Assembly (NCBI GenBank): GCA_043798915.1 | Contig: JAZDOG010000068.1 | Coordinates: 498 to 64,497, forward strand | Length of the DNA: 64,000 nucleotides | Reading direction: 5' to 3' | Source: Pseudomonadota bacterium | GTDB taxonomy: Bacteria > UBA10199 > 2-02-FULL-44-16 > JAAZCA01 | Part shown: one piece after another, positions 3,989-36,342 of the stretch | Layout of the letters: every line of letters begins with the position of its first letter | Position numbering within the stretch: position 1 is the first letter of the stretch | The notes under the pieces: model-generated | What the model saw: only the letters and a program-made list of their open reading frames with translations | What the model was told of the DNA's origin: nothing | The model's database searches: none | Translations under genes and position numbers: made by a program

Positions 3989-5323
3989 ATGCCGGAATTC
4001 ACTCAAAAACGGGCATATATCCGCACCTTCGGGTGCCAGATGAACGAGCACGACTCCGTCCGGATTATGGGGATGCTCGAGTCGCTGGGCTATGTCTCGA
4101 GCGGCACCATCGATGATGCCGATCTCATCCTCTTCAACACCTGCACGATCCGCGAGAAGGCGCACCACAAGGCGATGAGCGAAATAGGGCGCGCGCGTCT
4201 CTTCAAGGAGCGGCGAGCTGGAACGCTCGTCGGCGTCTGCGGCTGCGTGGCGCAGGAAGAGCGCGAGGCGATCTTCGAGCGCTATCCCCATGTGGACATC
4301 CTTTTCGGCCCGGACCAGATCGCGCGCCTGCCTGAACTCATCGATGATGCCATGGGAAACAGCCGCGCCTCCGCCCTCGAACTCATCGACGATCCCTCGC
4401 AGTATCGGTTTTTGGGAAACGACGTTCGAGTTTCGAGTCCCGAGTCCCGAGTCTCGGCTTTCGTTTCCATAATGAAAGGCTGCAACTGCGCCTGCAGCTA
4501 TTGCATCGTGCCAAAGGTGCGCGGCCGAGAGGTCTGCCGTCCGGTCGGCGAAATCGTCGACGAGGTCCGGCGGCTCGCCGAGGCCGGGACGAAAGAAGTC
4601 ACGCTTCTCGGACAAAACGTGAACGCGTACCAGGGATCGGTCTCATTTTCCGGCCTCATTCGCCGGATCGCTGATGAAACCGATATCGGCCGCATCCGCT
4701 TCACTTCGCCTCACCCGCGCGATGCAGGAGATGATCTCGTCCGCGAGTATGCGGAGAACGAAAAGCTCATGCCGCACATCCATCTGCCGGTGCAGGCCGG
4801 CAGCAACGCGGTTCTTCGGAAGATGCGCCGGGGCTACACGCGCGAGCGCTATATCGAAATATGCGACGCGCTCCGCGGCGCCCGGCCAGGCATGTCGATC
4901 ACCACTGATATTATAGTCGGCTTCTGCGGCGAGAGCGTCGCGGATTTTGAGGAGACGCTCTCGCTCATGAGGAGGGTCGATTTCGATTCCGCCTTCGCGT
5001 TCAAGTATTCCCCTCGGCCGGGCACAGAGGCGGCCCTGAAATTCGAGGACGACGTGCCTCTCGAGGAGAAGAAAGAGCGCCTCGCGCGGCTGCTTTCGCT
5101 CCAGATTGAGACGTCGCGCCGCAAAAATCAGGCATTCGTGGGGATGGAAGGCGATGCCCTCGCGACCGGCTTCGATAGGATGAACCGCGGCCTCATCACG
5201 GCGAGGCTCCCCGACAACCGCATCGTACATTTCGCTGGCCATGCGGACTCAGTTGGTAATATACTGAAAGTCCGGGTGACCGGTGCGTTTGCAAACTCGC
5301 TTGCGGCGGAGGCAATTCAATGA
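3989..5323 (+). CDS. miaB: tRNA-i6A37 methylthiotransferase MiaB (radical SAM MTTase with TRAM domain).
   Basis: Motifs present are FGCQMNEHDS, the CxxxCxxC radical SAM motif (CNCACSYC) and a C-terminal TRAM domain. Confidence 0.85.
   Translation: MPEFTQKRAYIRTFGCQMNEHDSVRIMGMLESLGYVSSGTIDDADLILFNTCTIREKAHHKAMSEIGRARLFKERRAGTLVGVCGCVAQEEREAIFERYPHVDILFGPDQIARLPELIDDAMGNSRASALELIDDPSQYRFLGNDVRVSSPESRVSAFVSIMKGCNCACSYCIVPKVRGREVCRPVGEIVDEVRRLAEAGTKEVTLLGQNVNAYQGSVSFSGLIRRIADETDIGRIRFTSPHPRDAGDDLVREYAENEKLMPHIHLPVQAGSNAVLRKMRRGYTRERYIEICDALRGARPGMSITTDIIVGFCGESVADFEETLSLMRRVDFDSAFAFKYSPRPGTEAALKFEDDVPLEEKKERLARLLSLQIETSRRKNQAFVGMEGDALATGFDRMNRGLITARLPDNRIVHFAGHADSVGNILKVRVTGAFANSLAAEAIQ
4416..4468. 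repeat. Hairpin-forming micro-repeat inside miaB. Four tandem heptamers YYCGAGT (4425-4452) are flanked by an inverted GGAAACG/CGTTTCC pair.
   Basis: Read directly: ggaaacgacg ttcgagt ttcgagt cccgagt cccgagt ctcgg ctttcgtttcc. The frame is maintained and it encodes ...NDVRVSSPESRVSAF. Confidence 0.5.
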
Positions 5324-5854: not shown

Positions 5855-6361
5855 ATGATATCCGCAATCAAAGGCAAATCACCCAACATAGATCCAAGCG
5901 CCTTTGTGGCCGGCAATGCCACGGTGCTTGGGGATGTCAGGATCGGAGCGGGCGCTGGGATATGGTTCGGGGCCGTCATCCGCGGCGATTCGAACTCGAT
6001 ATGCGTAGGTTCCAGGACAAATGTGCAGGATCTCTGCGTCCTCCACGTGGACGAGTTGAATCCGCTCAGGATAGGCGACGACGTCACGATAGGGCACCGC
6101 GCCATTCTTCACGGCTGCAGCGTTGGCGACAGGGTGCTCATCGGCATGGGCGCGATCATCATGAACGGTGCCACCATAGGTGACGACTCCATTGTCGGCG
6201 CGGGCGCGCTCGTCACCGAGGGCACAAAAGTTCTGCCGCGCTCACTCCTTATCGGCGTCCCGGCGAAGGTGAAGAGGGAGCTCTCGGATGGCGAGATCGC
6301 CGGCATCCTGCAGGCCGCAAAGCATTATGTGCAGAACGCGGCAGTATATAAGAAGTCTTAA
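5855..6361 (+). CDS. Gamma-class carbonic anhydrase family protein (left-handed beta-helix hexapeptide repeat).
   Basis: Hexapeptide repeats and VLHVDE...IGDDVTIGHRAILHGCSVGDRVLIGMGAI are typical of YrdA/PaaY gamma-CA-like proteins. Confidence 0.8.
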   Translation: MISAIKGKSPNIDPSAFVAGNATVLGDVRIGAGAGIWFGAVIRGDSNSICVGSRTNVQDLCVLHVDELNPLRIGDDVTIGHRAILHGCSVGDRVLIGMGAIIMNGATIGDDSIVGAGALVTEGTKVLPRSLLIGVPAKVKRELSDGEIAGILQAAKHYVQNAAVYKKS

Positions 6362-6362
6362 A

Positions 6363-6453
6363 CTCCCCTCCTTTGTAAGGAGGGGGTGGGGGAGGTAGAT
6401 CGTGGTCTATGCTTGATCTACCCTCCCTATCCCTCCCTTACAAAGGGAGGGGG
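6363..6453. repeat. Palindromic repeat element, copy A (intergenic, just upstream of tilS).
   Basis: Read directly: ctcccctcctttgtaaggagggggtgggggaggtagatc-gtggtctatgctt-gatctaccctccctatccctcccttacaaagggaggggg. Two terminal hairpins flank a central palindrome. Confidence 0.8.
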
Positions 6454-6464
6454 TTTGAAAAATC

Positions 6465-7463
6465 ATGCTGTTTCCCAAGTTCAAAAAATTCATGGCGGAT
6501 AACGACCTCATTCGAGAGGGCGATGGCGTCATCGTCGCGGTCTCCGGCGGCATCGACTCTATGGTCCTCCTCGATCTCTTCTGCCGTGTCGCGGGGCCGA
6601 TGAAGCTCTCCCTCAGGGCGGCGCATGTGAACCACATGCTCCGCGACAGGGCATCAGGCGAGGACGAGGCGCTGGTGCGCAAATTCTGCGGCAAGATGGG
6701 CATCCCCTGCGAAGTCCAGAGGCGCAGGCCTCCGGCAGGCAAAAACCTCCAGGATGCGGCCAGGAGAATTCGGTACGATTTTTTTAAAAGCAGCGCAGAA
6801 AAGGGGAGGGCGTTCTCGATAGCCACCGCCCATCATATGGACGATCAGGCGGAGACGATCCTCCTGCACCTGATTCGCGGCGCGGGGCTCGCAGGTCTCG
6901 CCGGCATGAGGCCGAAGGCGCGCATTGGAGCGCTGAAACTGGTGCGACCGCTCCTCTTTGCATCGAGGGCTGAGATCGAGCAATACGCGAAACAGAGACA
7001 CATCGAATACAACGACGATGCCACGAATGCGACAGTGAAATATGCCCGAAATTCGGTGCGCCATCGCCTGATCCCGCTCCTAAAGGAATTCAATCCGCGA
7101 ATAGTCGAAAACATCGCGGCGATAGGCGACAGGGCGGACGCCGACGAAAAGGCCCTGCGGCTGTTTGCTGAGGAATCGCTCGATCAGGCGCTGACCAGAA
7201 ACAGCCGCGATGAGATATGGCTCTCCCGCCAGGCCTGGCTGCCGCTGCCCCAGGCGGTCAGAGGCCGCATGCTTCGCGCCGCCTTCGAGCGCGCGAGCGG
7301 AAGCGCCAAGGATTTGAATGCCGACCAGCTGTTGCGGATGGATTCGATAGCGGCAGGGCCTCGGCCCTCGGGGTCGTATCGCCTCCCCGCGCCCTGGAAA
7401 TTTCATCGCGATGGCGACCTGATCGGAATCACCCGCAGCGCAAAAAAGTGTGACAGAAAGTGA
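6465..7463 (+). CDS. tilS: tRNA(Ile)-lysidine synthetase TilS.
   Basis: The N-terminal PP-loop SGGIDS (VAVSGGIDSMVLLDLF) is present. The 332-aa length fits a short TilS form. Confidence 0.75.
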   Translation: MLFPKFKKFMADNDLIREGDGVIVAVSGGIDSMVLLDLFCRVAGPMKLSLRAAHVNHMLRDRASGEDEALVRKFCGKMGIPCEVQRRRPPAGKNLQDAARRIRYDFFKSSAEKGRAFSIATAHHMDDQAETILLHLIRGAGLAGLAGMRPKARIGALKLVRPLLFASRAEIEQYAKQRHIEYNDDATNATVKYARNSVRHRLIPLLKEFNPRIVENIAAIGDRADADEKALRLFAEESLDQALTRNSRDEIWLSRQAWLPLPQAVRGRMLRAAFERASGSAKDLNADQLLRMDSIAAGPRPSGSYRLPAPWKFHRDGDLIGITRSAKKCDRK

Positions 7464-8584: not shown

Positions 8585-8842
8585 TTTCCCTCTCCCCTCG
8601 TGCCTGCCCGCCGACGGTTCAGTGGCGGGGGAGAGGGTCAGGGTGAGGGGGAAGATCGCACGGATTCCAATATCCCCCTCCCTCCGACTCCCTCCCACAA
8701 GGAGGGTGTTTCCGAAGTGTCATTCCCGCATGATGTAAGCGGGAATCCCCATCAGAAGTTCATGGGGTTCCCGATTTAAGCACTCGGGAATGACAAAATA
8801 GAGGCCTACTGTTACTTCGGAAACACCCTCGCAAGGGGAGGG
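8585..8842. repeat. Composite or degenerate repeat complex related to the palindromic element family.
   Basis: Segment 8585-8687 has cctctcccctcg...cgggggagagggtcagggtgagggggaagatc, which resembles copy B. Segment 8690-8842 has the shape ccctcccacaaggaggg-[internal inverted repeat]-ccctcgcaaggggaggg. The internal inverted repeat reads gtgtttccgaagtgtcattcccg ... cgggaatgaca..acttcggaaacac. Confidence 0.6.
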
Positions 8843-8960
8843 AGAATTTCTAAAGGCACCATACTGAAATAGTTGCGAACCTAAAGTGCTATAAAGGGGT
8901 TGCTTAACCCTGTTTTCTCCGCTATTTTCCCCCGACTCGATAATTTCAAGGAGCCTTCAC

Positions 8961-15283: not shown

Positions 15284-16834
15284 ATGAAACTTGTGACTTC
15301 AAAACAAATGCGCGGGCTCGATCGCGCCGCCATTGAAAAGCATGGGATCGCCTCGCTCGATCTCATGGAGCGCGCGGGCCGGGGCGTGGCGAAAGCTGTA
15401 GCCAGCCTCACGCCGCCGGAGAAAGGGACGGTCGCTATCATCGCCGGCCGCGGCAACAACGGCGGCGACGGGCTCGTTGCAGCGCGACATCTGATCTCGA
15501 TGGGATACGAAGTCGCCGTTTGGCTTCTGGCGGGGCCCTCCGACCTCTCGCCGGACGCCCGCGCGAACTGGGAGTTGCTCGCCCCGCTCACGACGCATCT
15601 GTTCACAATCGCGGATATCGCCGAATTCAATTCCAGATTGCCCCTCATCGAGCGATCGTGCCTGATCGTCGATGCGATCCTCGGCACCGGTCTCGACCGC
15701 GACGTCGCAGGGCTTCCTGCGGCCGCTATCGCAGCGATCAACGCCGCCGGCATTCCGGTCGTGTCGGTCGATATTCCGTCCGGGCTTTCGGCGGATACCG
15801 GAAAACCGCTTGGCGCCGCAGTCCGCGCCGCTGCGACGGTGACCTTCGGCCTGCCGAAGATGGGCCTTGTGGTCGGCGATGGGCCTGTTTTTTCGGGCTC
15901 AATCAAAGTCGTGGATATCGGGATACCGGGTGAGGAGACTGATCGCGTCGAATCTCTGATCGAGCTGATCGAGCCTTCGATGTTCGCGTCCCATTTCGGA
16001 AAGCGCGATCCCTCCGCGCACAAGGGGGCGTTCGGACACGTCGTGGTCTACTCAGGATCGCTGGGGCATCTTGGCGCGGGATATCTCGGGTGCCTGGCGG
16101 CGCTGCGCGCTGGATGCGGGCTCGTCACGTATTGCCTGCCGGAGAAGGCGTTCGTCCGGTTCGATGCGCGCTATCCGGAGGTTATGTGCGATCCGATTGC
16201 GGATGATGCCTCGGCGCATTTTCACCCCAAGGGTCTCGATGCCGCGCTTCGCGTTGCCGATGGAAAGTCGGTTGCGGCGATCGGCCCGGCGATCGGCACA
16301 GAAAAGTCGACGCGCGAATTTGTGAATTCATTCATCGGCAGGATTAAAATTCCGCTCGTCATAGATGCGGATGGACTCAACGTGCTCGATCTCTCTTCCC
16401 TCAGGGGACGCCGCGCGGCCACGATCCTCACCCCGCACCCCGGCGAGATGGGGAGGCTGTCAAAGGCCGCAACTGAGGATGTTCAGGCCGACAGAGTGGG
16501 GCACGCCACCCGTTTCGCAAAGGAACACGGCGTGACGCTCGTCCTCAAGGGGCGCGGGACTGTCGTCGCGAGCCCCGACGGGAGCGCCGCAATAAATCAT
16601 ACGGGCAATGCCGGGATGGCGACGGCTGGGATGGGGGACGCCCTCACTGGCATCGTTGCATCGTTTATCGCGCAGGGGATGGATGTGAAGACGGCCTGTG
16701 TCGCCGCCGTCTACATCCACGGCCTGGCCGGCGACATGGCCGCCGCCGAACACGGCGAGCGCGCGCTGATCACCTCGGATGTGATAGGCAAGCTGGGAAA
16801 GGCGATGAAAAAGATTTCCCCCTCCCCTTTGTAA
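15284..16834 (+). CDS. nnr: Bifunctional NAD(P)H-hydrate repair enzyme Nnr (YjeF_N epimerase plus C-terminal dehydratase).
   Basis: Present are the N-domain IAGRGNNGGDG and the C-domain carbohydrate-kinase fold. The last 6 codons and the TAA stop are supplied by repeat copy B. Confidence 0.85.
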   Translation: MKLVTSKQMRGLDRAAIEKHGIASLDLMERAGRGVAKAVASLTPPEKGTVAIIAGRGNNGGDGLVAARHLISMGYEVAVWLLAGPSDLSPDARANWELLAPLTTHLFTIADIAEFNSRLPLIERSCLIVDAILGTGLDRDVAGLPAAAIAAINAAGIPVVSVDIPSGLSADTGKPLGAAVRAAATVTFGLPKMGLVVGDGPVFSGSIKVVDIGIPGEETDRVESLIELIEPSMFASHFGKRDPSAHKGAFGHVVVYSGSLGHLGAGYLGCLAALRAGCGLVTYCLPEKAFVRFDARYPEVMCDPIADDASAHFHPKGLDAALRVADGKSVAAIGPAIGTEKSTREFVNSFIGRIKIPLVIDADGLNVLDLSSLRGRRAATILTPHPGEMGRLSKAATEDVQADRVGHATRFAKEHGVTLVLKGRGTVVASPDGSAAINHTGNAGMATAGMGDALTGIVASFIAQGMDVKTACVAAVYIHGLAGDMAAAEHGERALITSDVIGKLGKAMKKISPSPL

Positions 16835-16910
16835 GGGGAGGGTCAGGGTGGGGTAGATAGCTGATTCAGTGCTGATCTACCTCCCCCAGCCCCTCCTTAC
16901 AAAGGAGGGG
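16817..16910. repeat. Palindromic repeat element, copy B. It overlaps the 3' end of nnr and the RBS/start region of tsaE.
   Basis: Read directly: cccctcccctttgtaaggggagggtcagggtggggtagatagctgattcagtgctgatctacctcccccagcccctccttacaaaggaggggag. Confidence 0.8.
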
Positions 16911-16933
16911 AGTTGTGCAATCATCGATATAAC

Positions 16934-17364: not shown

Positions 17365-18771
17365 ATGGCATATGACCTCGCAATCATCGGCGCAGGGCCA
17401 GGAGGCTACGTCGCAGCCATAAGGGCGGCGCAGCTCGGCAAAAAAGTTGCGCTCATCGAGCGCGACCGCGTGGGCGGCGTCTGCTTGAATCGCGGCTGCA
17501 TACCGACGAAGGCGATGATTTCCTCTGCGCATGCGCTGCACGCCGTCAGGTCGGCCGCGGATTTTGGAATCGATCTGCCGGCGGGTGAAGCGACGGTCGA
17601 TATGGCGAAGATCGCCGCCCGCCGCGACAGGATAGTCGCGCAGTTGAGAGGCGGTGTAGCGGCGCTCCTCAAGGGAAACGGGGTCGAGCTGATTTCCGGC
17701 ACGGCCTCTTTCGTTTCAAAAGGAATCCTCGATGTGAATGGAAATGAAATCGAGGCCGGCAAAATACTCATCGCCACCGGTTCCTCTTGGATGGAACTTC
17801 CCGACCTCAAGATCGACGGCCGCCGCATAGTCACGACCGACGAGGCGCTTGGCTGGACGAGCGTTCCGCCGCGCCTCCTGATCGTAGGCGGCGGTGTCAT
17901 CGGATGTGAATTCGCGTGCATGATGCAGACCTTCGGTTCGAAGGTGACGATCGTCGAGGCGACCCCGTCGATCCTCCCGTTCGTTGAGAAGGCGATCTCG
18001 CGCCTGCTCGACCGCTCGATGAAGGGGCGAGGAATCGAGATCCTCACATCCACGATGGTCAAAGGCGCGGTGGTCCAGGGCAACGAAGTGAAGATTTCTC
18101 TCTCCTCCGGTGAAGAGAGGCTGGCGGATTGCGTGCTCGTCGGGGTCGGCAGAAGGCCCTTCACGGAGGGCTTGGAGTTAGAACGCGCGGGGGTCCTGCT
18201 CACGGAGCGCGGATTCATAAAGGTCGATGAAAATTTCCAGACGAGCGCCGAAGGGGTGTTTGCAATCGGCGACGTGATAGGGGCTCCGATGCTCGCGCAC
18301 GCCGCGAGCGCTGAAGGCATTGCTGCGGTGGAAAGGATGTTTTCGGGACTCGGTACTCGGGACTCGGTACTCGGATACAATCCTTTGTACTGTCCATCGC
18401 CAATATTCACCATGCCCGAAATTGCCTGTGTCGGGCAAACGTCGGAGGGACTGGAACAGAAGGGCATCAAATTCAAGACGGGCAGGTTCGCATATGCGGC
18501 AAACGGCAAGGCCCTCTGCGACGGCGACACGGAGGGGCAGGCCATAGTCCATTCAGATGCAGATGGAAAAATACTCGGCGTTCATGTAACAGGTCACGAT
18601 GCGACGCTCCTCATGGCGGAGGCCGTCCTTGCGATGAGAAAAGGCCTCGCCGCAAAGGATTTCGCCTCGTCGATCCACTCGCATCCGACGCTCTCGGAGG
18701 TTGTCGCGGAGGCAGCGGAGGATGTGGATGGCAGGGCGATACACAAGGCGCCGGCGCGCAGAAAGGAATAG
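17365..18771 (+). CDS. lpdA: Dihydrolipoyl dehydrogenase.
   Basis: Sequence shows [17 protein letters not shown] and the redox disulfide [13 protein letters not shown]. Length is 468 aa. Confidence 0.9.
18345..18375. repeat. Tandem heptamer micro-repeat (ACTCGGN x4, the reverse complement of the miaB CCGAGT repeat) in frame inside lpdA.
   Basis: Read directly: gggactcggtactc gggactcggtactc gg. It encodes an extra [10 protein letters not shown]-like segment relative to typical LpdA. Confidence 0.5.
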
Positions 18772-28597: not shown

Positions 28598-29539
28598 GTG
28601 AACGGACGATCGACAGATAGCTCCAGGAGGAGGCTTCCTGAATGGCTCAAGAAACGGGCTGTTCCGGGTGAAGCTATCCACGCGATCAAGCGCGGCCTGC
28701 GCGACAGTGCGCTCCACACCGTCTGCGAAGAGGCCCGCTGTCCCAACCTCGGCGAATGTTTCTCACGCGGCACCGCGACGATGATGATCATGGGCGATAC
28801 CTGCACTCGCCGCTGCGGCTTCTGTGCGGTGAAGGGCGGCGTTCCTGGGCCGCTCGATGCCGGAGAGCCCTCGCGCGTGGCCCTGCAGGTCAAGGTGATG
28901 AAACTCAAGCATGCCGTGGTAACCTCCGTCACGCGCGACGACCTCCCGGATGGCGGCGGCGCGCATTTTGCGCAGACGATAGCCGAGATAAGAAGGCTCT
29001 GCCCCGAAATCACGATCGAGGTCCTGACGCCCGACTTCTGCGGCAGCGAAGAGGCGATAGGGACGGTCTGCAGCGCAGCTCCGGATATATTCAACCACAA
29101 CATCGAGACGGTCGAGCGGCTGACGCCCGTCGTGCGCGATCGCAGGGCAAGTTATCGACGGTCGCTTGATGTATTGAGGATAGCAGCCAAAACCCTCCCC
29201 TTTGTAAGGGGAGGGAAGGGTGGGGTAGATCATGATCTACCTCCCCTAACCCCTCCTTACAAAGGAGGGGGACTAATCAAGTCAGGGCTGATGGTGGGCC
29301 TGGGCGAGACCTGCAATGAAGTGGCCGGCGCCCTCCTGGACCTCAAAGAAGCGGGCTGCGACATCGTGACGATCGGCCAATACCTGCGCCCATCGAAGGA
29401 TGCGCTGCCGGTGGTCAGCTATGTTGAACCTTCGACCTTCGAAAAGTATAGAGAAAATGCTTTAAATATCGGATTTAAGACTGTGTTTTCAGGCCCTTTT
29501 ATTCGTAGTTCATATCTGGCCGATAAGGCGCTACTTTAA
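28598..29539 (+). CDS. lipA: Lipoyl synthase.
   Basis: Sequence shows LHTVCEEARCPNLGEC, then CTRRCGFCAV (radical SAM), then ...SGLMVGLGET. It carries a 27-codon in-frame insertion from repeat copy C. GTG start. Confidence 0.9.
   Translation: MNGRSTDSSRRRLPEWLKKRAVPGEAIHAIKRGLRDSALHTVCEEARCPNLGECFSRGTATMMIMGDTCTRRCGFCAVKGGVPGPLDAGEPSRVALQVKVMKLKHAVVTSVTRDDLPDGGGAHFAQTIAEIRRLCPEITIEVLTPDFCGSEEAIGTVCSAAPDIFNHNIETVERLTPVVRDRRASYRRSLDVLRIAAKTLPFVRGGKGGVDHDLPPLTPPYKGGGLIKSGLMVGLGETCNEVAGALLDLKEAGCDIVTIGQYLRPSKDALPVVSYVEPSTFEKYRENALNIGFKTVFSGPFIRSSYLADKALL
29193..29271. repeat. Palindromic repeat element, copy C, inserted in frame inside lipA.
   Basis: Read directly: ccctcccctttgtaaggggagggaagggtggggtagatcatgatctacctcccctaacccctccttacaaaggaggggg. 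It is translated as TLPFVRGGKGGVDHDLPPLTPPYKGGG. Confidence 0.85.
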
Positions 29540-30912: not shown

Positions 30913-31902
30913 ATGCACGCCATAACCGATACCTCCGGCCGGCCATACGATGTCTCCGTCATAGTCCCGTTTCTGAACGAGAGGGAGAATCTTCCGCAGC
31001 TGCAGGCGGAGCTGATCGCGGCGCTTTCCGGGACCGGGAGGAGCTTTGAGATCATATTTGTCGACGACGGATCGACGGACGGCGGTGCGGATCTGGTCGG
31101 GGAGCTCTCCGGCAAGGACTCGCGCGTCAAGCTCATCCAGTTCACGCGAAACTTCGGCCAGACGGCGGCCCTCGCCGCCGGTTTTGCGAAGGCAAGCGGG
31201 CGGATATATGTCGCGATAGACGCCGACAACCAGAACGATCCGGCCGACATCCCCAGGCTCCTGGCCAAACTCGATGAGGGCTACGACGCAGTCTCAGGAT
31301 GGAGAAAAAAGCGACAGGACAAACTCATCACGCGCAGGGCGCCTTCGGCGGCCGCCAACCGCCTGCTCTCGGCGGTGACCGGCGTCAAACTCAAGGACTA
31401 CGGCTGCTCGCTCAAGGCATATCGCGCCGAGTACATCGACTCGATCGACCTCTACGGCGAGATGCACCGCTTCATCCCCGCGCTCGCGCACATGGCCGGC
31501 GCGCGTGTGGCAGAGATTCCGGTCGGCCACCGCCTGCGCACGAGCGGCAAGTCGAAATACGGGCTCATCCGCATCTTCAAAGTCCTGATCGACCTGGCCA
31601 CGGTCAAGTTCCTCTCCACCTATGCGACCAAGCCAGGCTATCTCTTCGGTGGAATCGGGTCGGTGCTGTGCCTTGCGGGGCTCGCTTCGAGCGCCGAGGT
31701 CATAATAGAGAAATTTGTGAATGGGACGTATGCGCACAGGAATCCATTTCTCATGCTGGCGGTCTTCCTCTTCTCTCTCGGCGTGCAGCTGATCCTCATG
31801 GGGCTCATCGCCGAACTCATGGTGAGGACATATCATGAGTCGCAGGGGAAACCGATTTATCTGGTGAAGAAGACCGTCAACCTTGTGCGATCGGACGAGT
31901 GA
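30913..31902 (+). CDS. GT2-family polyprenyl-phosphate glycosyltransferase (DPM1/ArnC-like) with C-terminal TM helices.
   Basis: Sequence shows VSVIVPFLNERENL...FVDDGSTDG...VAIDADNQNDPADIP plus two C-terminal TM segments. Confidence 0.8.
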   Translation: MHAITDTSGRPYDVSVIVPFLNERENLPQLQAELIAALSGTGRSFEIIFVDDGSTDGGADLVGELSGKDSRVKLIQFTRNFGQTAALAAGFAKASGRIYVAIDADNQNDPADIPRLLAKLDEGYDAVSGWRKKRQDKLITRRAPSAAANRLLSAVTGVKLKDYGCSLKAYRAEYIDSIDLYGEMHRFIPALAHMAGARVAEIPVGHRLRTSGKSKYGLIRIFKVLIDLATVKFLSTYATKPGYLFGGIGSVLCLAGLASSAEVIIEKFVNGTYAHRNPFLMLAVFLFSLGVQLILMGLIAELMVRTYHESQGKPIYLVKKTVNLVRSDE

Positions 31903-33785
31903 TGTGCGGCATCTGCGGAATAATCCACGATGAACCGGCGCGCCCCGTCGAGAGGAATCTCCTCGAGGCGATGAACCGGACCATGATCCACCGCGGGCCA
32001 GACGATGAGGGATACTTCGTCGGCCGCGGCTCGGGGCTTGGCGTGCGCAGGCTATCGATCATGGACGTCCAGGGCGGCCACCAGCCCATGTCCTCTGAGG
32101 ACGGCAAGGTCTACGCCGTCTGCAACGGAGAGATATATAACTTCAGGGAACTTCGCAGCGAGCTCGAGGGCAGGGGGCACGTCTTCCGTTCGTGCTCCGA
32201 CTCGGAGGTCCTTCCGCACCTGTATGAGGAGAGCGGCGCGGATCTGCCGCAGAGATTGAACGGTATGTTCGGACTCGCCGTGTGGGATGAACCGGAGCGC
32301 ACCCTCATCCTCGCCCGCGATCGGATGGGCGAAAAGCCGCTCTACTGGACGCACCAGCACGGAATCTTTGCATTCGGCTCCGAGCTCAAGGCGATCATCG
32401 TGCATCCGGAAATCAATCCGTCGGTCGACCGCAGTTCGCTCTCGAAATACCTGGCCTTCGAGTACATCCCCGCGCCGCACACGATCTTCGAGGGCATCAA
32501 CAAGCTCGAACCGGGCCACCTCCTGATCCTTAGGAAAAACCAGGTCACGGTGCGCTCATACTGGGACGTCCCGACGGGCAGGGAAATAGGCGGCGTCTCG
32601 GAGAAGGACGCGGCCAGGGAAATATTGCGGCTCCTCGAACAATCCGTGCAGAGGCGGCTCATGAGCGATGTGCCGCTGGGCGTCTTCCTCTCCGGCGGGG
32701 TCGATTCATCCTCGATCGTGGCGATGATGTCGAAGCTTCGGGATCCCAGGGATATCAAGACCTTTTCGATCGCCTTCGAGGAGGTGTCGTTTGACGAGTC
32801 GTCGCATGCGAAGAGGGTGGCCGCGCATTTCGGGACGGACCATCGGGAGAAACTCTTCACCTCCGCCGAATTGATCAAGCTCCTGCCCGAGGTCACGGCC
32901 TTCTTGGACGAGCCGCTCGGCGACGCTTCCATATTGCCCACATACGCCCTTTCGAAATTCACGCGGCAGAGCGTGACGGTGGCCCTCTCCGGCGACGGCG
33001 GCGACGAGCTCTTCGCCGGCTACCCCACGTTCCAGGCCGAGAAGTGCATGCGCGCCTACAGGGCGCTGCCCGCGTTTTTGAGGGAGCGGGTCATTGAGCC
33101 CGTGATGCGGGCGCTGCCGGTCTCCGATGCGAACATGAGCTTCGATTTCAAGCTCAAGCAGTTCATCAAGGGCGCCAACGTCGACAATCCGGAGCGCCTG
33201 TTCATATGGATATGCTCTTTCTCGCCGGAGGAACAGCAGCGGCTTCTGGCGCACGATCTGCCGGAGGGGATGCTCTCCGATATCCAGCGCCATGCGGCCG
33301 CCGCGCGCGATGCCTCCGGCGGCAACAGGATCCTCTACCTATACAAGAAGCTCTATCTTGCCGAGGACCTGCTGACGAAGATCGACAGGGCCTCGATGGG
33401 CGCCTCCCTCGAGGCGCGCGCGCCGTTCCTCGACCACGATCTCGTCGAATTCGTCGCGCGCCTGCCCTATGAGATGAAGCTCCACGGCTTCACGACCAAA
33501 TACATACTCAAGAAGGCGATGAGGCCGCTCTTGCCGAAGGGGATCGCCTCTCGGCCCAAAAAGGGATTCGGCATACCGGTCGCTCAGTGGGTCAAGGGGC
33601 CGCTGAAGGAGATGTTCCAGGACCTCTTCGAGGCGGGTCGCATCAGGAGTGAAGGTTTCTTCCGCCCGGGTGAAATATCCCGGCTCCTCCGCGATCACAT
33701 GGACGGCCGGGCGGACAACCGCAAGAAACTCTGGACCCTCTTCATGTTCGAGCAGTGGCTCCAGCGGTTTGGGATCAAGTCTTAA
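31902..33785 (+). CDS. asnB: Asparagine synthase (glutamine-hydrolysing).
   Basis: Present are the N-terminal nucleophile MCGI, the GATase-2 domain and the SGGVDSS PP-loop. Confidence 0.9.
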
Positions 33786-33843
33786 GAACGCTTTAAATAT
33801 TAAGAGATTGACAGCTTGCCAACCCGATTGTAATTCCAGCGAC

Positions 33844-36342
33844 ATGCCTGAACGACACTACAACCCTGCCGAAATCGAATCCAAGTGGCAGAAGCACTGG
33901 GAGAAGAAGGGGCTCTTCAAGGTGAAGGAGGTCCCAGGGCAGAAGAAGTATTACCTCCTCGAGATGCTCCCGTACCCCTCCGGGCGGCTTCACATGGGGC
34001 ACGTGCGCAACTACACGATAGGCGACGTCGCGACGCGCTGCCGCATGATGCAGGGCTTCAAGGTGCTGCACCCAATGGGCTGGGATGCCTTCGGCATGCC
34101 CGCCGAGAACGCCGCGATCAAGGAGGGCGTCCACCCCGCCAAGTGGACGAAGTCGAACATCGATTACATGCGCGGGCAGTTCAAGCGCCTCGGATGCTCC
34201 TATGACTGGGAGCGCGAATTCGCCACGTGCGACCCCGATTACTACCGATGGGACCAGCTGATATTCGTGCGGATGTTCGAGAAGGGATGGGCCTACAAGA
34301 AGAGCTCCCAGATCAACTGGTGCCCGACATGCCAGACGGTGCTGGCCAACGAGCAGGCCGAGGGAGGCGTCTGCTGGCGCTGCGACTCGGGGGTGGTGGG
34401 CAAACCGATGTCGCAATGGTTCTTCAGGATCACCGATTACGCCGAGGAGCTCCTCCGCGACATCGACGAAAAGCTCACGGGCTGGCCGGAGCGCGTCCGC
34501 ATCATGCAGCGCGAGTGGATCGGAAAGAGCGTGGGCGCCTTGATCAGATTTCCCCTCCTTTGTAAGGAGGGGAAAGGGGAGGTAGACCATGATCTACCCC
34601 ACCCTAACCCTCCCCTTACAAAGGGGAGGGAATTTATCGAGGTCTTCACGACGCGCCCGGACACGATCTTCGGCGTCACCTTCATGAGCATCGCGTGCGA
34701 GCACCCGCTCGTTAAGGAATTCGTGAAAGGGACCGGCCAGGAGAGGGCGGTCGCGGCGTTTGCCGAGAAGAGCTCCCACATCGACCACGAGGCCAGGCTC
34801 GCAAACACATATGAGAAGGACGGCGTCTTCACCGGCGCATATTGCATAAACCCGATGACGGGCGCGCGCGTGCCGATCTACGCCGCCAACTTCGTCCTCA
34901 TGGACTACGGCACGGGTGCTGTGATGGCGGTGCCGGCGCACGACCAGCGCGATTTTGAATTCGCGAAAAAATACAAGCTCCCTGTCAAGGTCGTGATCCA
35001 GCCGGAAGGGGAGAAGCTCGATGCAAGAGCGATGGCTGAAGCCTGGGAGGGACCGGGGACGCTCGTCGATTCGGGCGAGTTCACCGGAATGAACAGCGAG
35101 GCCGCGATCCGCGCCATCTCGGAGCACTTTGCGAAGAAAAAGATCGGCGGGCCGGCGGTCACGTATCGTCTGAAGGACTGGTGCATCTCGCGTCAGCGCT
35201 ACTGGGGCGCACCCATCCCCATCATCTATTGCGACTCATGCGGGACAGTGCCTGTCCCGGATAAGGACCTGCCCGTTGTCCTTCCTCATGACGTGGAGTT
35301 CACCGGCGAGGGCGGCTCGCCGATAGCCAAACTCGAGTCATTCGTGGACACCAAATGCCCCAGGTGCAAGGGAAAGGCGCGGCGCGAGACCGACACGATG
35401 GACACGTTCGTCGAGTCGTCGTGGTACATGCTGCGCTATGCATGCCCCAAATACGACAAGGGGCCTGTCGATCCGAAGATGATCGAGTACTGGCTTCCGG
35501 TCGATCAGTACATCGGCGGGATCGAACATGCCGTCGGGCATCTCATCTACTGCCGCTATTTCACCAAGGTGATGCGCGACTTGGGGATGCTCAAGCTCGA
35601 CGAGCCGGTGAAGAACCTGATGACGCAGGGGATGGTCTACAAGGACGGCGCCAAGATGAGCAAGTCGAAGGGGAACGTCGTCGACCCTGACGACATGATC
35701 GCCAAGTTCGGCGCCGACACCGTGAGGCTCTTTTCGCTCTTCGCCGCGCCGCCTGAGAAAGACCTCGAGTGGAGCGAGCGAGGGGTGGAAGGGGCGCACC
35801 GCTTCCTCATCCGCGTATGGCGCATCGTCTCGGCGTGGAAAGAGGGAGGAGGCGGAAAGGGTGCAAAGGCGACAGAAGATATCGGGCAGTGGCGAAACCG
35901 CACGATCCAGCGCGTCACCGAGGATGTAGACCGTTACCATTTCAACACCGCGATCGCTGCGGTGATGGAGTACGTCAACTTCCTCTACGGCCTCAAGGTG
36001 CAGGATATCCCTGCGGAGGCGATCGAGACGCTCATACTCCTCGTCTCCCCGTTTGCGCCGCACGCGGCGGAGGAACTCTGGGAGCTCTTGGGGCATTCGA
36101 AGTCGACCCTCCACGAGCCGTGGCCGGCGTTCGATCCTGCGAAGGCGCAGGGCTACACGGTGACCTACATCGTGCAGGTTGGCGGCAAGATGCGAGACAA
36201 GCTCGATCTCCCCATCGATATGCCCGAGGAGGACGTGAAGGCCGCGGCCCTAGCCTCGGCGAAAGTTGCTGCGCATCTCGAAGGCAAGGCGCCCCAAAAG
36301 GTGATCTTCGTCCCGAAGAGGCTCGTGAATATTGTGGTGTGA
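33844..36342 (+). CDS. leuS: Leucyl-tRNA synthetase.
   Basis: Present are [12 protein letters not shown] (start of the CP1 editing domain) and KMSKS. It carries a ~27-codon in-frame insertion from repeat copy D just before VFTTRPDT. Confidence 0.95.
34551..34629. repeat. Palindromic repeat element, copy D, inserted in frame inside leuS.
   Basis: Read directly: cccctcctttgtaaggaggggaaaggggaggtagaccatgatctaccccaccctaaccctccccttacaaaggggaggg. It is translated as [26 protein letters not shown]. Confidence 0.85.

What the first reader, a model, noticed from the sequence alone, without database searches (positions are those of the whole stretch)
29193..29271. Palindromic repeat family inserted in frame into essential genes, lipA copy
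A ~79-bp self-complementary element is embedded in frame in lipoyl synthase. Its shape is a CCCTCC-TTTGTAA-GGAGGG hairpin at each end around the palindrome GTAGATCATGATCTAC. It lies between the conserved ...SLDVLRIAAK and KSGLMVGLGET, where E. coli LipA has only a short linker. It adds 27 residues (TLPFVRGGKGGVDHDLPPLTPPYKGGG) without interrupting the ORF. The element has exactly one stop-free frame per orientation, reading GTA GAT CAT GAT CTA. The other two frames hit TAG, TGA or TAA. That open frame is the one used here and in leuS. This resembles Rickettsia palindromic elements (RPEs), the textbook case of selfish repeats tolerated inside protein-coding genes. At least four full and several degenerate copies fall within 64 kb, so the element is abundant genome-wide and probably mobile (MITE-like). 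Such a family has apparently not been described for a lineage like this one.
Basis: partly seen in the sequence, partly recalled or inferred. Interest (0 to 1): 0.85.

Follow-up and report, generated by a model that had tools for sequence, protein, structure and literature searches.

The report
Palindromic mobile repeat inside lipoyl synthase
A 79-base self-complementary repeat sits in frame inside the essential lipoyl synthase gene, adding a floppy loop to the protein, and it appears to be the stripped-down remnant of a small, undescribed genetic unit that carries a DUF559 nuclease gene between the same hairpin ends.

Summary
Window 29193-29271 is a 79-nt near-perfect palindrome in frame in lipA. 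It is one of exactly four complete copies in the window; the others are in frame in leuS, overlapping the nnr stop codon, and abutting a stop codon upstream of tilS. No degenerate copies were found. LipA orthologues normally have a 2-4 residue linker here, and the insert is modelled as a disordered loop. The RPE/MITE-like reading is supported and extended. The ends occur mainly in Nitrospirota MAGs and in the window's own poorly sampled lineage. Three syntenic relatives carry the element at the same lipA site, as different subfamilies and once inverted. A fourth carries an unrelated palindrome there. Relatives whose fetched contigs lack the family have empty sites. Full-length versions (444-455 nt) hold a DUF559 (Vsr-like nuclease) gene between the same termini, and a relative has a decaying intermediate. 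All 12 metagenomic DUF559 genes at least 56% identical to the query are flanked by these termini. I found no description of this in the searchable literature. In-frame repeats are a known kind of feature, but the nuclease-only parent unit is a new variant. Whether DUF559 drives mobility is inferred, and no target-site duplication was found.

The parts
29193..29271 (+). The flagged element (copy c3), 79 nt, orientation B end to A end, in frame in lipA. It encodes residues 199-225 of LipA.
29193..29215 (+). B-end terminal hairpin CCCTCCCC-TTTGTAA-GGGGAGGG. It is followed by the inner module GGGTGGGGTAGA (29219-29230).
29225..29240 (.). Central palindrome GTAGATCATGATCTAC. This is where the two inner ends meet. 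In full-length units a DUF559 gene lies here, with its ATG directly after GTAGATC in relative L116.
29249..29271 (+). A-end terminal hairpin CCCCTCC-TTACAAA-GGAGGGG(G). It contains the reverse complement of the 21-mer used for the collection scans.
28598..29539 (+). lipA (lipoyl synthase), the host gene, 313 aa. Identical to NCBI MAG protein P0001.
34551..34630 (-). Copy c4, 80 nt, opposite orientation (A end to B end along the + strand), in frame in leuS. It encodes about [28 protein letters not shown] in the hairpin leading into the CP1 editing domain, just before TTRPDT.
33844..36342 (+). leuS (leucine--tRNA ligase), the host gene. The mechanical ORF starts at 33649, but the database protein P0122 (832 aa) corresponds to 33844.
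16820..16911 (+). Copy c2, 92 nt, orientation B to A, with a longer centre that contains stops. It overlaps the 3' end of nnr/yjeF, and the gene's TAA stop (16832-16834) is the loop of the element's first hairpin, so the last few codons are element-encoded.
6364..6450 (-). Copy c1, 87 nt (the palindrome extends to 6360-6457), orientation A to B, intergenic. It starts at the TAA stop of a gamma carbonic anhydrase gene (6359-6361), and its GGGAGGGGG end lies 11 nt before the tilS ATG (6465).

Best explanation
The 79-nt sequence is a non-autonomous, MITE-like palindromic repeat. Each end is a module of about 36-40 nt: a 7-8 bp C-rich/G-rich hairpin with a TTTGTAA loop, then GG(G/T)G(A/G)GGTAGA. 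The two modules face each other. The short element is best read as an internal-deletion derivative of a 444-455 nt unit in which the same two modules bracket a DUF559 gene of about 120 aa (Vsr-like PD-(D/E)XK nuclease fold), always read from the B end to the A end. The copy landed in DNA coding for a short linker between a helix and a strand of the LipA barrel. It arrived in the only stop-free frame and with a net length that is a multiple of three, so it is translated as a Gly/Pro-rich, probably disordered loop and was not purged. The same applies to the leuS copy. Shown: the repeat family, its anatomy, in-frame status, loop location, empty versus filled orthologous sites, different subfamilies and orientations at the same site, and the tight physical association of the termini with one DUF559 clade. 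Inferred: that the short elements derive from the DUF559 unit by deletion (probability about 0.7); that DUF559 is the enzyme that moves them in trans (about 0.35); and that insertion prefers targets resembling the element's own ends (CCC...GG, which are Pro/Gly codons and Shine-Dalgarno-like GGAGG), which would explain why protein loops and gene starts are hit repeatedly (about 0.3).
For: Family and anatomy: four copies and eight end modules in the window. In the fetched loci there are 187 end modules and 56 two-ended elements, 53 of them 71-199 nt. In frame and in a loop. Presence/absence: syntenic relative L123 has an empty lipA site and L209 an empty leuS site, and neither has any end module in 21-22 kb, whereas occupied relatives have 1-9.6 ends per 10 kb. 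Recurrent insertion or conversion: flanking lipA DNA is 64-72% identical between genomes while the elements are 85-99% identical. The L116 lipA copy shares its minimal centre with L116's own intergenic copy (97%). The L118 lipA copy matches an intergenic copy of another genome (97%). The L119 copy is inverted. The frame through the left arm differs between the window (PFVRGG) and L116/L118 (PLCKG). DUF559 link: L005 and L059 hold a DUF559 ORF (Pfam E 8e-32 and 1e-33) exactly between the ends. It is also adjacent to such hairpins in L074, L024, L040, L052, L037 and L116. L116, a close relative of the window, has GATC-type ends around a DUF559 gene that has lost its catalytic core, which is a decay intermediate. 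Reverse test: of 80 metagenomic DUF559 loci chosen by protein similarity alone, all 12 at >=56% identity are flanked by the end modules in the right geometry. Also, 38 of 55 have significant flanking inverted repeats, and 47 of 58 have a >=8-bp hairpin upstream against 6 of 938 control windows. Vsr-like nucleases are an established homing endonuclease family (PMC2677866, PMC3239194).
Against: No target-site duplication or sharp insertion boundary could be defined. No DUF559 gene lies in this 64-kb window, so an active partner in this genome is not shown. DUF559 has no demonstrated activity; the closest solved structure, 3HRL, is a structural-genomics 'endonuclease-like protein'. A lone PD-(D/E)XK nuclease is not a known transposase. 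Classical homing does not explain spread to many unrelated sites. 75 of 187 ends are solo, and these are not explained. The leuS copies of the window and L210 share junctions exactly, which fits common descent there rather than repeated insertion. The LipA tree is too star-like to decide between the two. The target-resemblance idea rests on two genes and one or two empty sites.
Confidence: 0.72

Rival explanations
1. There was one ancient insertion in lipA (and one in leuS), inherited vertically. The element looks young and subfamily-specific because gene conversion with other genomic copies keeps homogenising it, and palindrome-mediated flipping explains the inverted copy. There is no insertion hot spot.
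For: The window and L210 leuS copies share orientation, phase and both junctions. P0002 and P0003 LipA, both occupied, are sisters in the tree. The element is far more conserved than its flanks, which conversion would also produce.
Against: The four occupied LipA sequences do not form a clade, and the window groups with none of them, although support is poor. Left-junction phase differs between copies. Unrelated palindromic elements occupy the same codon gap in P0010 and P0037 LipA, and about 20 LeuS proteins have other inserts there, so repeated insertion at these loops clearly happens. The five closest LeuS relatives are empty while more distant ones are occupied.
Confidence: 0.25
2. The repeats are REP/REPIN-like or otherwise moved by a host-encoded transposase (a RAYT/IS200-type Y1 enzyme or a DDE enzyme) that lies outside the sampled DNA. 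DUF559 is then a passenger or a selfish nuclease gene that itself homes into the repeats, not their engine.
For: A GTAG motif lies next to each hairpin, and two inverted modules form a longer hairpin, as in REPINs. 75 solo ends exist with no DUF559 nearby. Small extra palindromes nest inside the hairpin loops, showing these hairpins are targets for other elements. DUF559 is not a known transposase.
Against: In every full-length unit the gene bracketed by the ends is DUF559, with constant polarity, across Nitrospirota, Nitrospinota, Elusimicrobia and the window's lineage. The reverse test scored 12 of 12. GTAG lies on the inner (3') side of the terminal hairpin, unlike canonical REPs (my own knowledge of REP anatomy). 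No Y1 transposase was seen between the ends, but the window's ORFs were not all scanned.
Confidence: 0.2
3. The in-gene copies have been taken over for a function: an RNA structure that slows translation or stabilises the mRNA, or a useful protein loop. They are kept by selection rather than merely tolerated.
For: The RNA fold is very stable (-55.8 kcal/mol). The palindrome is kept intact in four diverged lipA genes, and frames are preserved even with nested inserts. Intergenic copies often place AAGGAGGGG 9-11 nt before a start codon.
Against: Most orthologues, including syntenic relatives, lack the insert. The peptide differs by frame and orientation between genomes, so no protein-level function is conserved. 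The insert is modelled as disordered. The same sequence occurs in unrelated genes and between genes.
Confidence: 0.08
4. It is an assembly or binning artefact: a repeat wrongly joined into lipA.
For: The source is a metagenome-assembled genome. Short repeats can mislead assemblers.
Against: The ORF stays open, and the flanks on both sides align to LipA without loss. The identical protein is deposited at NCBI. Independent assemblies from JGI and ENA show the same element at the same site in three other genomes.
Confidence: 0.02

Closest known systems
Rickettsia palindromic elements (RPEs; Ogata et al. 2000, 2002, as summarised in PMC10969869)
   Same: Short palindromic repeats found both between genes and in frame inside unrelated housekeeping genes. 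They have an open frame, are translated as extra peptide segments compatible with the fold, and occupy sites that are empty in orthologues.
   Different: The lineage is different (uncultured free-living bacteria and Nitrospirota, not obligate intracellular Rickettsia). The element is shorter (71-135 nt against about 100-150). The ends are G/C-rich hairpins. In the loci sampled only a minority of copies are in genes. A candidate parent unit with a DUF559 gene is identified here. Sequence relatedness to RPEs was not tested.
Bacterial MITEs (for example Correia, ERIC, Nezha; review PMC10969869)
   Same: Small size, no coding capacity of their own, long terminal inverted repeats, many dispersed copies, empty and filled orthologous sites, and a longer relative that shares the ends. 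The review states that in-frame fusions with host ORFs occur.
   Different: No target-site duplication was found. The longer relative encodes only a roughly 120-aa Vsr-like nuclease-fold protein, not a DDE or Y1 transposase.
REP/REPIN elements with RAYT transposases
   Same: Hairpin modules with an adjacent GTAG, arranged as inverted pairs that form a long hairpin. They are very abundant and closely similar within a genome.
   Different: The gene flanked by the modules is DUF559, not a Y1 transposase. GTAG is on the inner side of the hairpin. Copies occur inside genes, whereas REPs are by definition extragenic.
Vsr-like (EDxHD) homing endonucleases such as I-Bth0305I (PMC2677866, PMC3239194)
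   Same: A small PD-(D/E)XK/Vsr-fold nuclease gene behaving as selfish DNA. The invariant D...E-x-D-G-x-x-H residues in the DUF559 alignment fit that fold. There is a weak match to a 'homing endonuclease' model.
   Different: Homing endonuclease genes spread to one cognate site, usually within introns, inteins or as free-standing genes. Here the gene sits between hairpin inverted repeats, and its gene-less derivatives are scattered over many unrelated sites.

Membership tests
MITE | Small (under about 500 bp), with no transposase gene of its own | tested here: met
   79 nt; copies in the window and loci range 71-199 nt
MITE | Terminal inverted repeats | tested here: met
   End modules of about 36-40 nt in inverted orientation; 8 HMM hits for 4 elements
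MITE | Multiple dispersed copies | tested here: met
   4 copies in 64 kb; up to 9.6 ends per 10 kb in relative L121
MITE | Target-site duplication flanking each copy | tested here: inconclusive
   50 copies show no direct repeat. T at -1 and A at +1 only extend the palindrome. Boundaries are blurred by similarity between the ends and the targets.
MITE | A longer autonomous element with the same ends that encodes the transposase | tested here: inconclusive
   Units of 444-455 nt with the same ends exist and encode DUF559. DUF559 is not a known transposase, and its activity cannot be tested here.
MITE | Empty and filled orthologous sites | tested here: met
   lipA in L123 and leuS in L209 are empty; L116, L118, L119 and L210 are filled
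Rickettsia palindromic elements | Palindromic repeat inserted in frame in protein-coding genes and translated as an added segment | tested here: met
   In frame in lipA, leuS and (in L074) an AcrB-family gene. Translation itself cannot be tested here.
Rickettsia palindromic elements | Sequence membership in RPE families 1-10, in the Rickettsia lineage | not tested
   No RPE sequences were available to compare. The host lineage is clearly not Rickettsia: about 59% G+C, and relatives are labelled Pseudomonadota, Deltaproteobacteria or bacterium MAGs.
REP/REPIN-RAYT | The repeats flank a RAYT (Y1, IS200-like) transposase gene | tested here: not met
   The gene between the ends is DUF559 (PF04480), with no Y1_Tnp match. 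The whole genome is not available.
REP/REPIN-RAYT | Extragenic location | tested here: not met
   Two of the four window copies are inside genes and a third overlaps a gene end
Vsr-like homing endonuclease gene | PD-(D/E)XK / Vsr-like nuclease fold | tested here: met
   PF04480 at E 1e-33; PDB 3HRL at E 5e-21; invariant D53, E64, D66, H70
Vsr-like homing endonuclease gene | Cleaves the empty cognate site and is copied there by repair (a single target) | not testable with these tools
   This needs biochemistry. The scatter of copies over many unrelated sites argues against simple homing.
Curated RNA families (Rfam 15) | Match at the gathering score | tested here: not met
   No hit in the window or in four full-length units. 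Only sub-threshold microRNA-hairpin noise on the element.

The most novel reading that the evidence does not exclude
Small DUF559 genes bracketed by C/G-rich hairpin inverted repeats are a widespread, unrecognised class of nuclease-only mobile units in environmental bacteria. They shed gene-less MITE-like derivatives, and their insertion is guided by resemblance between the hairpin ends and the target (CCC...GGG, meaning Pro/Gly codons and Shine-Dalgarno-like GGAGG). That would steer them into loop-coding DNA and gene starts, and would explain why the same loops of LipA and LeuS are hit again and again. It would also give the large DUF559 family its first proposed biological role.
Probability: 0.3. 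Interest if true: 0.8.

Novelty: new variant of a known kind. Interest (0 to 1): 0.62.

Why it matters
In-frame selfish repeats are best known from Rickettsia. Here the same phenomenon appears in free-living, uncultured bacteria. Two essential enzymes are each hit at one loop, and the same loops are occupied in several genomes by different subfamilies and by unrelated palindromes. That makes the loops natural markers of permissive sites in LipA and LeuRS. It also raises a testable question: do the elements aim at such sites, or do they merely survive there? The tight bracketing of one DUF559 clade by the same termini gives a concrete, testable hypothesis for a large domain family of unknown function, and for how a repeat family without a transposase might spread. 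Practically, these repeats add spurious-looking Gly/Pro-rich segments to annotated proteins and fragment metagenome assemblies.

Tried and rejected
1. I searched the 5.8-billion protein database with the two element-encoded peptides joined together, to count host proteins with in-frame copies. Only 2 candidates were retrieved and the window's own LipA was not among them, so the result says nothing.
2. An exact-sequence look-up of the window LipA and of P0001 found no contig on record, so the source record name could not be obtained.
3. The 1,914-nt pair of ends in L007 was examined as a possible autonomous element. It only brackets ordinary helicase-like genes.
4. I tested whether the G-rich segment after each terminal hairpin covaries with that hairpin's 3' arm across DUF559 subfamilies. 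Own-locus matches were no better than cross-locus matches (4.72 against 4.76 of 7; permutation p about 0.48), so I dropped the idea.
5. A stem covariation test on hairpins I had selected for perfect pairing would have been circular, so I did not run it. The enrichment against control windows is reported instead.
6. A target-site duplication search over 50 copies found nothing.
7. A bootstrapped LipA tree, intended to decide between inheritance and repeated insertion, was star-like with support too low to decide. The planned LeuS tree was not run.
8. A scan of viral contigs with the 21-mer found only 4 contigs, so phages are not a major reservoir.
9. The Acidobacteriota hits to the 21-mer are hairpin plus T-run, so they look like ordinary terminators and were not counted as family members. 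One of them, L040, does lie next to a DUF559 gene.
10. Rfam and PADLOC gave no meaningful classification.
Full report
OBSERVATION. Window 29193-29271 reads CCCTCCCCTTTGTAAGGGGAGGG-AAG-GGTGGGGTAGATCATGATCTACCTCCCC-TAA-CCCCTCCTTACAAAGGAGGGG(G). It lies inside a 313-aa ORF (28598-29539). That ORF is lipoyl synthase by NCBIfam (TIGR00510, E 4e-106), and the match comes in two stretches that break at about residue 200. As a single strand the region folds at -55.8 kcal/mol, with z = -5.3 against dinucleotide shuffles. The terminal 23-mer occurs three times within three mismatches against none expected. Translating all six frames confirms that this copy has one stop-free frame per orientation and that lipA uses it. 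Repeat finding and an HMM built from end modules give exactly eight ends, which makes four complete elements and nothing weaker at E <= 10. The 'several degenerate copies' are therefore not confirmed. Rfam has no family for the element.

THE FOUR COPIES. The two ends are not identical. End A is CCCCTCC-TTTGTAA-GGAGGGG followed by GGGGAGGTAGA. End B is CC(C)TCCCC-TTTGTAA-GGGGAGG(G) followed by GG(G)TGGGGTAGA.
- Copy c3 (lipA) runs B to A along the + strand.
- Copy c2 (16820-16911) also runs B to A. It overlaps the end of nnr/yjeF, and the gene's TAA stop is the loop of the element's first hairpin.
- Copy c4 (34551-34630) runs A to B and is in frame in leuS.
- Copy c1 (6364-6450) runs A to B. 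It begins at the stop codon of a gamma carbonic anhydrase gene and ends 11 nt before the tilS start.
The two in-frame copies have the short centre GTAGAYCATGRTCTAC. The other two have centres of 27-28 nt that contain stops.

WHERE IN THE PROTEINS. In M. tuberculosis LipA (5EXI) and human LIAS (8UGO), the residues corresponding to the insert form a linker of 2-4 residues between the helix ...SLxVLxxA and the strand KSGLMVGLGE. Of 111 LipA homologues that could be anchored, 100 have the plain linker. An AlphaFold2 model of the window protein is confident overall (mean pLDDT 84, pTM 0.85). Residues 200-225 are coil, with pLDDT below 50 at 204-219, between helix 186-199 and strand 226-233. By the usual topology of beta/alpha barrels, a helix-to-strand loop lies on the face opposite the catalytic ends of the strands. 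That is an inference; I could not measure distances in the model. In LeuRS the insert sits in the beta-hairpin that leads into the CP1 editing domain, directly before TTRPDT (T. thermophilus 1H3N, residues about 236-243). The net gain in LipA is 22 residues (66 nt), less than the 79-nt element, because the element's ends now encode the Leu-Pro and Gly that orthologues have there anyway.

WHOSE GENOME. The LipA and LeuS proteins are identical to NCBI MAG proteins labelled 'Pseudomonadota bacterium', on a contig of 64,687 nt. The next-best homologues are only 66% (LipA) and 74% (LeuS) identical, and they come from unnamed or loosely named MAGs. The lineage is therefore poorly sampled and I cannot place it more precisely.

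THE FAMILY ELSEWHERE. The 21-mer shared by all four copies was scanned against one genome per species. Of the 80 listed with titles, 52 are Nitrospirota MAGs by my count, and the rest are spread over several phyla. In Nitrospirales the same ends (with GTAGAG instead of GTAGATC) flank centres of very different length. Across all loci I found 187 end modules, 75 of them solo, and 56 two-ended elements: 53 of 71-199 nt, two of 444 and 455 nt, and one 1,914-nt pair. Most copies are intergenic and abut gene ends. In-frame copies in long ORFs are a minority: lipA and leuS here, lipA in relatives, and an AcrB-family transporter in an Elusimicrobia MAG.

SAME SITE, DIFFERENT GENOMES. The closest LipA homologues come from syntenic loci (recG-lipA-(glpX)-SRPBCC-squalene-hopene cyclase). 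Three of them (L116, L118, L119) carry this element at the same codon gap, at the DNA level, with the palindrome intact. They are not simple orthologous copies.
- L116 has a 72-nt form with centre GTAGATCTAC. It is 97% identical to L116's own intergenic copy.
- L118 has a CTCCCCC...GGGGGAG / TCAGAGGGGG variant that is 97% identical to an intergenic copy in a different genome (L121). It also has a second small palindrome nested in a hairpin loop.
- L119 is inverted (A to B) and also carries a nested insert.
- The reading frame through the left arm differs between the window (PFVRGG) and L116/L118 (PLCKG).
Flanking lipA DNA is 64-72% identical between these genomes, while the elements are 85-99% identical. 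A fourth syntenic relative (L121) has an unrelated palindromic element at the same place, and so does P0037. Syntenic L123 is empty. At leuS, the five closest homologues are empty. P0128 (L210) and P0138 carry this element in the window's orientation, and about twenty others carry unrelated extra peptides at the same point. L123 and L209, which have the empty sites, contain no end module in 21-22 kb; occupied relatives have 1-9.6 per 10 kb. Together this supports repeated insertion (or conversion from other copies) into two permissive loops. The window and L210 leuS copies share their junctions exactly, so common descent is possible there. The LipA tree is too poorly resolved to decide.

THE DUF559 LINK. 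The two mid-sized elements, L005 (Nitrospirales, 455 nt) and L059 (Nitrospinae, 444 nt), each contain an ORF of about 120 aa exactly between the ends. Both ORFs are DUF559, PF04480, at E 8e-32 and 1e-33. tblastn found DUF559 ORFs in nine of the loci, which had been chosen only for the 21-mer, and eight of the nine lie next to such hairpins. In L005, L059, L074 and L116 the ORF always reads from end B to end A. L116 belongs to the window's own lineage and has the same GATC-type ends...GGTGGGGTAGATC-ATG...(ORF)...AATGATCTACCTCCCC. Its DUF559 has lost the catalytic core and reads out through end A in the '...DLPP' frame that lipA uses. It is therefore an intermediate between the full unit and the 79-nt element, whose centre GTAGATCATGATCTAC is what remains when everything between the inner ends is removed.

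I then ran the reverse test. I fetched 80 metagenomic DUF559 loci by protein similarity alone. All 12 with at least 56% identity to the query are flanked by this family's end modules in the expected geometry; 11 have both ends and one is cut by the contig end. The modules fade out below about 55% identity. More distant DUF559 genes are still bracketed by inverted repeats in 38 of 55 cases. A perfect pyrimidine-arm hairpin of at least 8 bp lies within 160 nt upstream in 47 of 58 cases, against 6 of 938 control windows. The window itself has no DUF559 gene.

WHAT IS KNOWN. A 2024 review states that in-frame MITE-ORF fusions are not unusual and that Rickettsia RPEs are the extreme case (PMC10969869). 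Only 25 papers in the searchable library mention DUF559. None does so in a title or abstract, and none appears, from its title and abstract, to describe it as a repeat-flanked unit. Nothing relevant was found for Nitrospira MITEs. Vsr-like nucleases are a recognised homing endonuclease family (PMC2677866, PMC3239194). The closest solved structure to the DUF559 ORF is 3HRL, an uncharacterised 'endonuclease-like protein'. PADLOC gives only weak nuclease-domain hits. The library does not cover most subscription journals, so 'undescribed' means undescribed as far as I could search.

MECHANISM. Shown: the anatomy, the in-frame and loop status, the empty and filled sites, the subfamily pattern, and the DUF559-termini association. 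Inferred:
- The short elements are deletion derivatives of the DUF559 unit (about 0.7).
- DUF559 acts on the hairpin termini to move them in trans (about 0.35).
- Insertion favours targets resembling the ends (about 0.3). The empty lipA site reads CTC CCG CAG GGC. Many insert-free LeuS relatives with longer loops have Phe-Pro ... Gly at the junctions. Several intergenic copies place AAGGAGGGG 9-11 nt before a start codon.
Because CCN and GGN are the Pro and Gly codons, such a preference would steer the element into loop-coding DNA. No target-site duplication was found. Solo ends are unexplained. A lone nuclease is not a known transposase, and a RAYT-type or other host enzyme remains a live alternative.

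VERDICT. The phenomenon is of a known kind. The family is new as far as I can tell, and its nuclease-only parent unit makes it a new variant. Interest 0.62.

Noticed in passing
window 8688-8844: A different composite palindromic element in an intergenic region. Outer arms are at 8688-8718 / 8814-8844 (CTCCCTCC-CACAA-GGAGGG hairpin style). Inner arms are at 8718-8749 / 8764-8795 (TGTCATTCCCGC...GCGGGAATCCC and its partner). It does not match the end-module HMM.
   Followed up: partly
L121:4888-5850 (lipA of a syntenic relative); also protein P0037: An unrelated palindromic repeat (GTCATCGCGAGGAGCCGAAGGCGACG...CGCCTCGCAATGACAC; peptide ...SSRGAEGDVAIPRNQGDCFGASAPRNDT) is inserted in frame at exactly the same LipA loop. 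P0037 has a similar '...LPRCARNDI' peptide there.
   Followed up: partly
L118:10001-10939, L119:1359-2396, L023, L093; protein P0138: Small secondary palindromes (for example CCCTCGACAAAGCTCGGGGCATGC and CCGCCCGAGGCAGATCAGCCTCTGGCTGA) are nested inside the TTTGTAA loops of the terminal hairpins. In the in-gene copies the reading frame stays open. The hairpin loops seem to be targets for yet another element.
   Followed up: no
window 6444-6467; L116:2450-2532; L121:2130-2229: The element's terminal AAGG(G)AGGGG lies 7-11 nt upstream of the start codon of the next gene (tilS in the window, lipA in L116, recG in L121). Intergenic copies may therefore supply or replace Shine-Dalgarno sequences, or they may insert at them.
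   Followed up: partly
LeuS homologues P0165-P0223: About 20 LeuS proteins from other lineages carry unrelated extra peptides (for example ...PPNPSLKKGGEGGF......TNAPTHQRTNA......GTFPSQRGTSPS...) at the same point before TTRPDT. Several look like translated palindromic repeats. This hairpin is a general landing pad.
   Followed up: partly
window 4427-4456 and 18344-18373: Short runs of a repeated 7-8-mer (CGAGTTTCGAGTCCCGAGTCCCGAGTCTCG and CGGGACTCGGTACTCGGGACTCGGTACTCG) are 87% complementary to each other although 14 kb apart.
   Followed up: no
L029 and L058 (two contigs of one Nitrospirales MAG); L049: The 12 nt outside the hairpin ends are also conserved between copies (CTGCCTCTTCTT... / ...ACAGGACAC). 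In Nitrospirales the repeated unit therefore extends beyond the termini as I defined them.
   Followed up: no
window 33649-33843: The mechanical leuS ORF starts 65 codons upstream of the start used by the deposited protein (33844) and overlaps the preceding 628-aa ORF (31899-33785). The upstream extension is probably not translated.
   Followed up: no
NCBIfam hit PRK09767: The DUF559 ORF matches the NCBIfam model PRK09767, described only as 'DUF559 domain-containing protein' (E 5e-21, below that model's cutoff). Whether DUF559 genes in cultured model organisms are flanked by hairpin repeats was not checked. If they are, that would offer a tractable experimental system.
   Followed up: no
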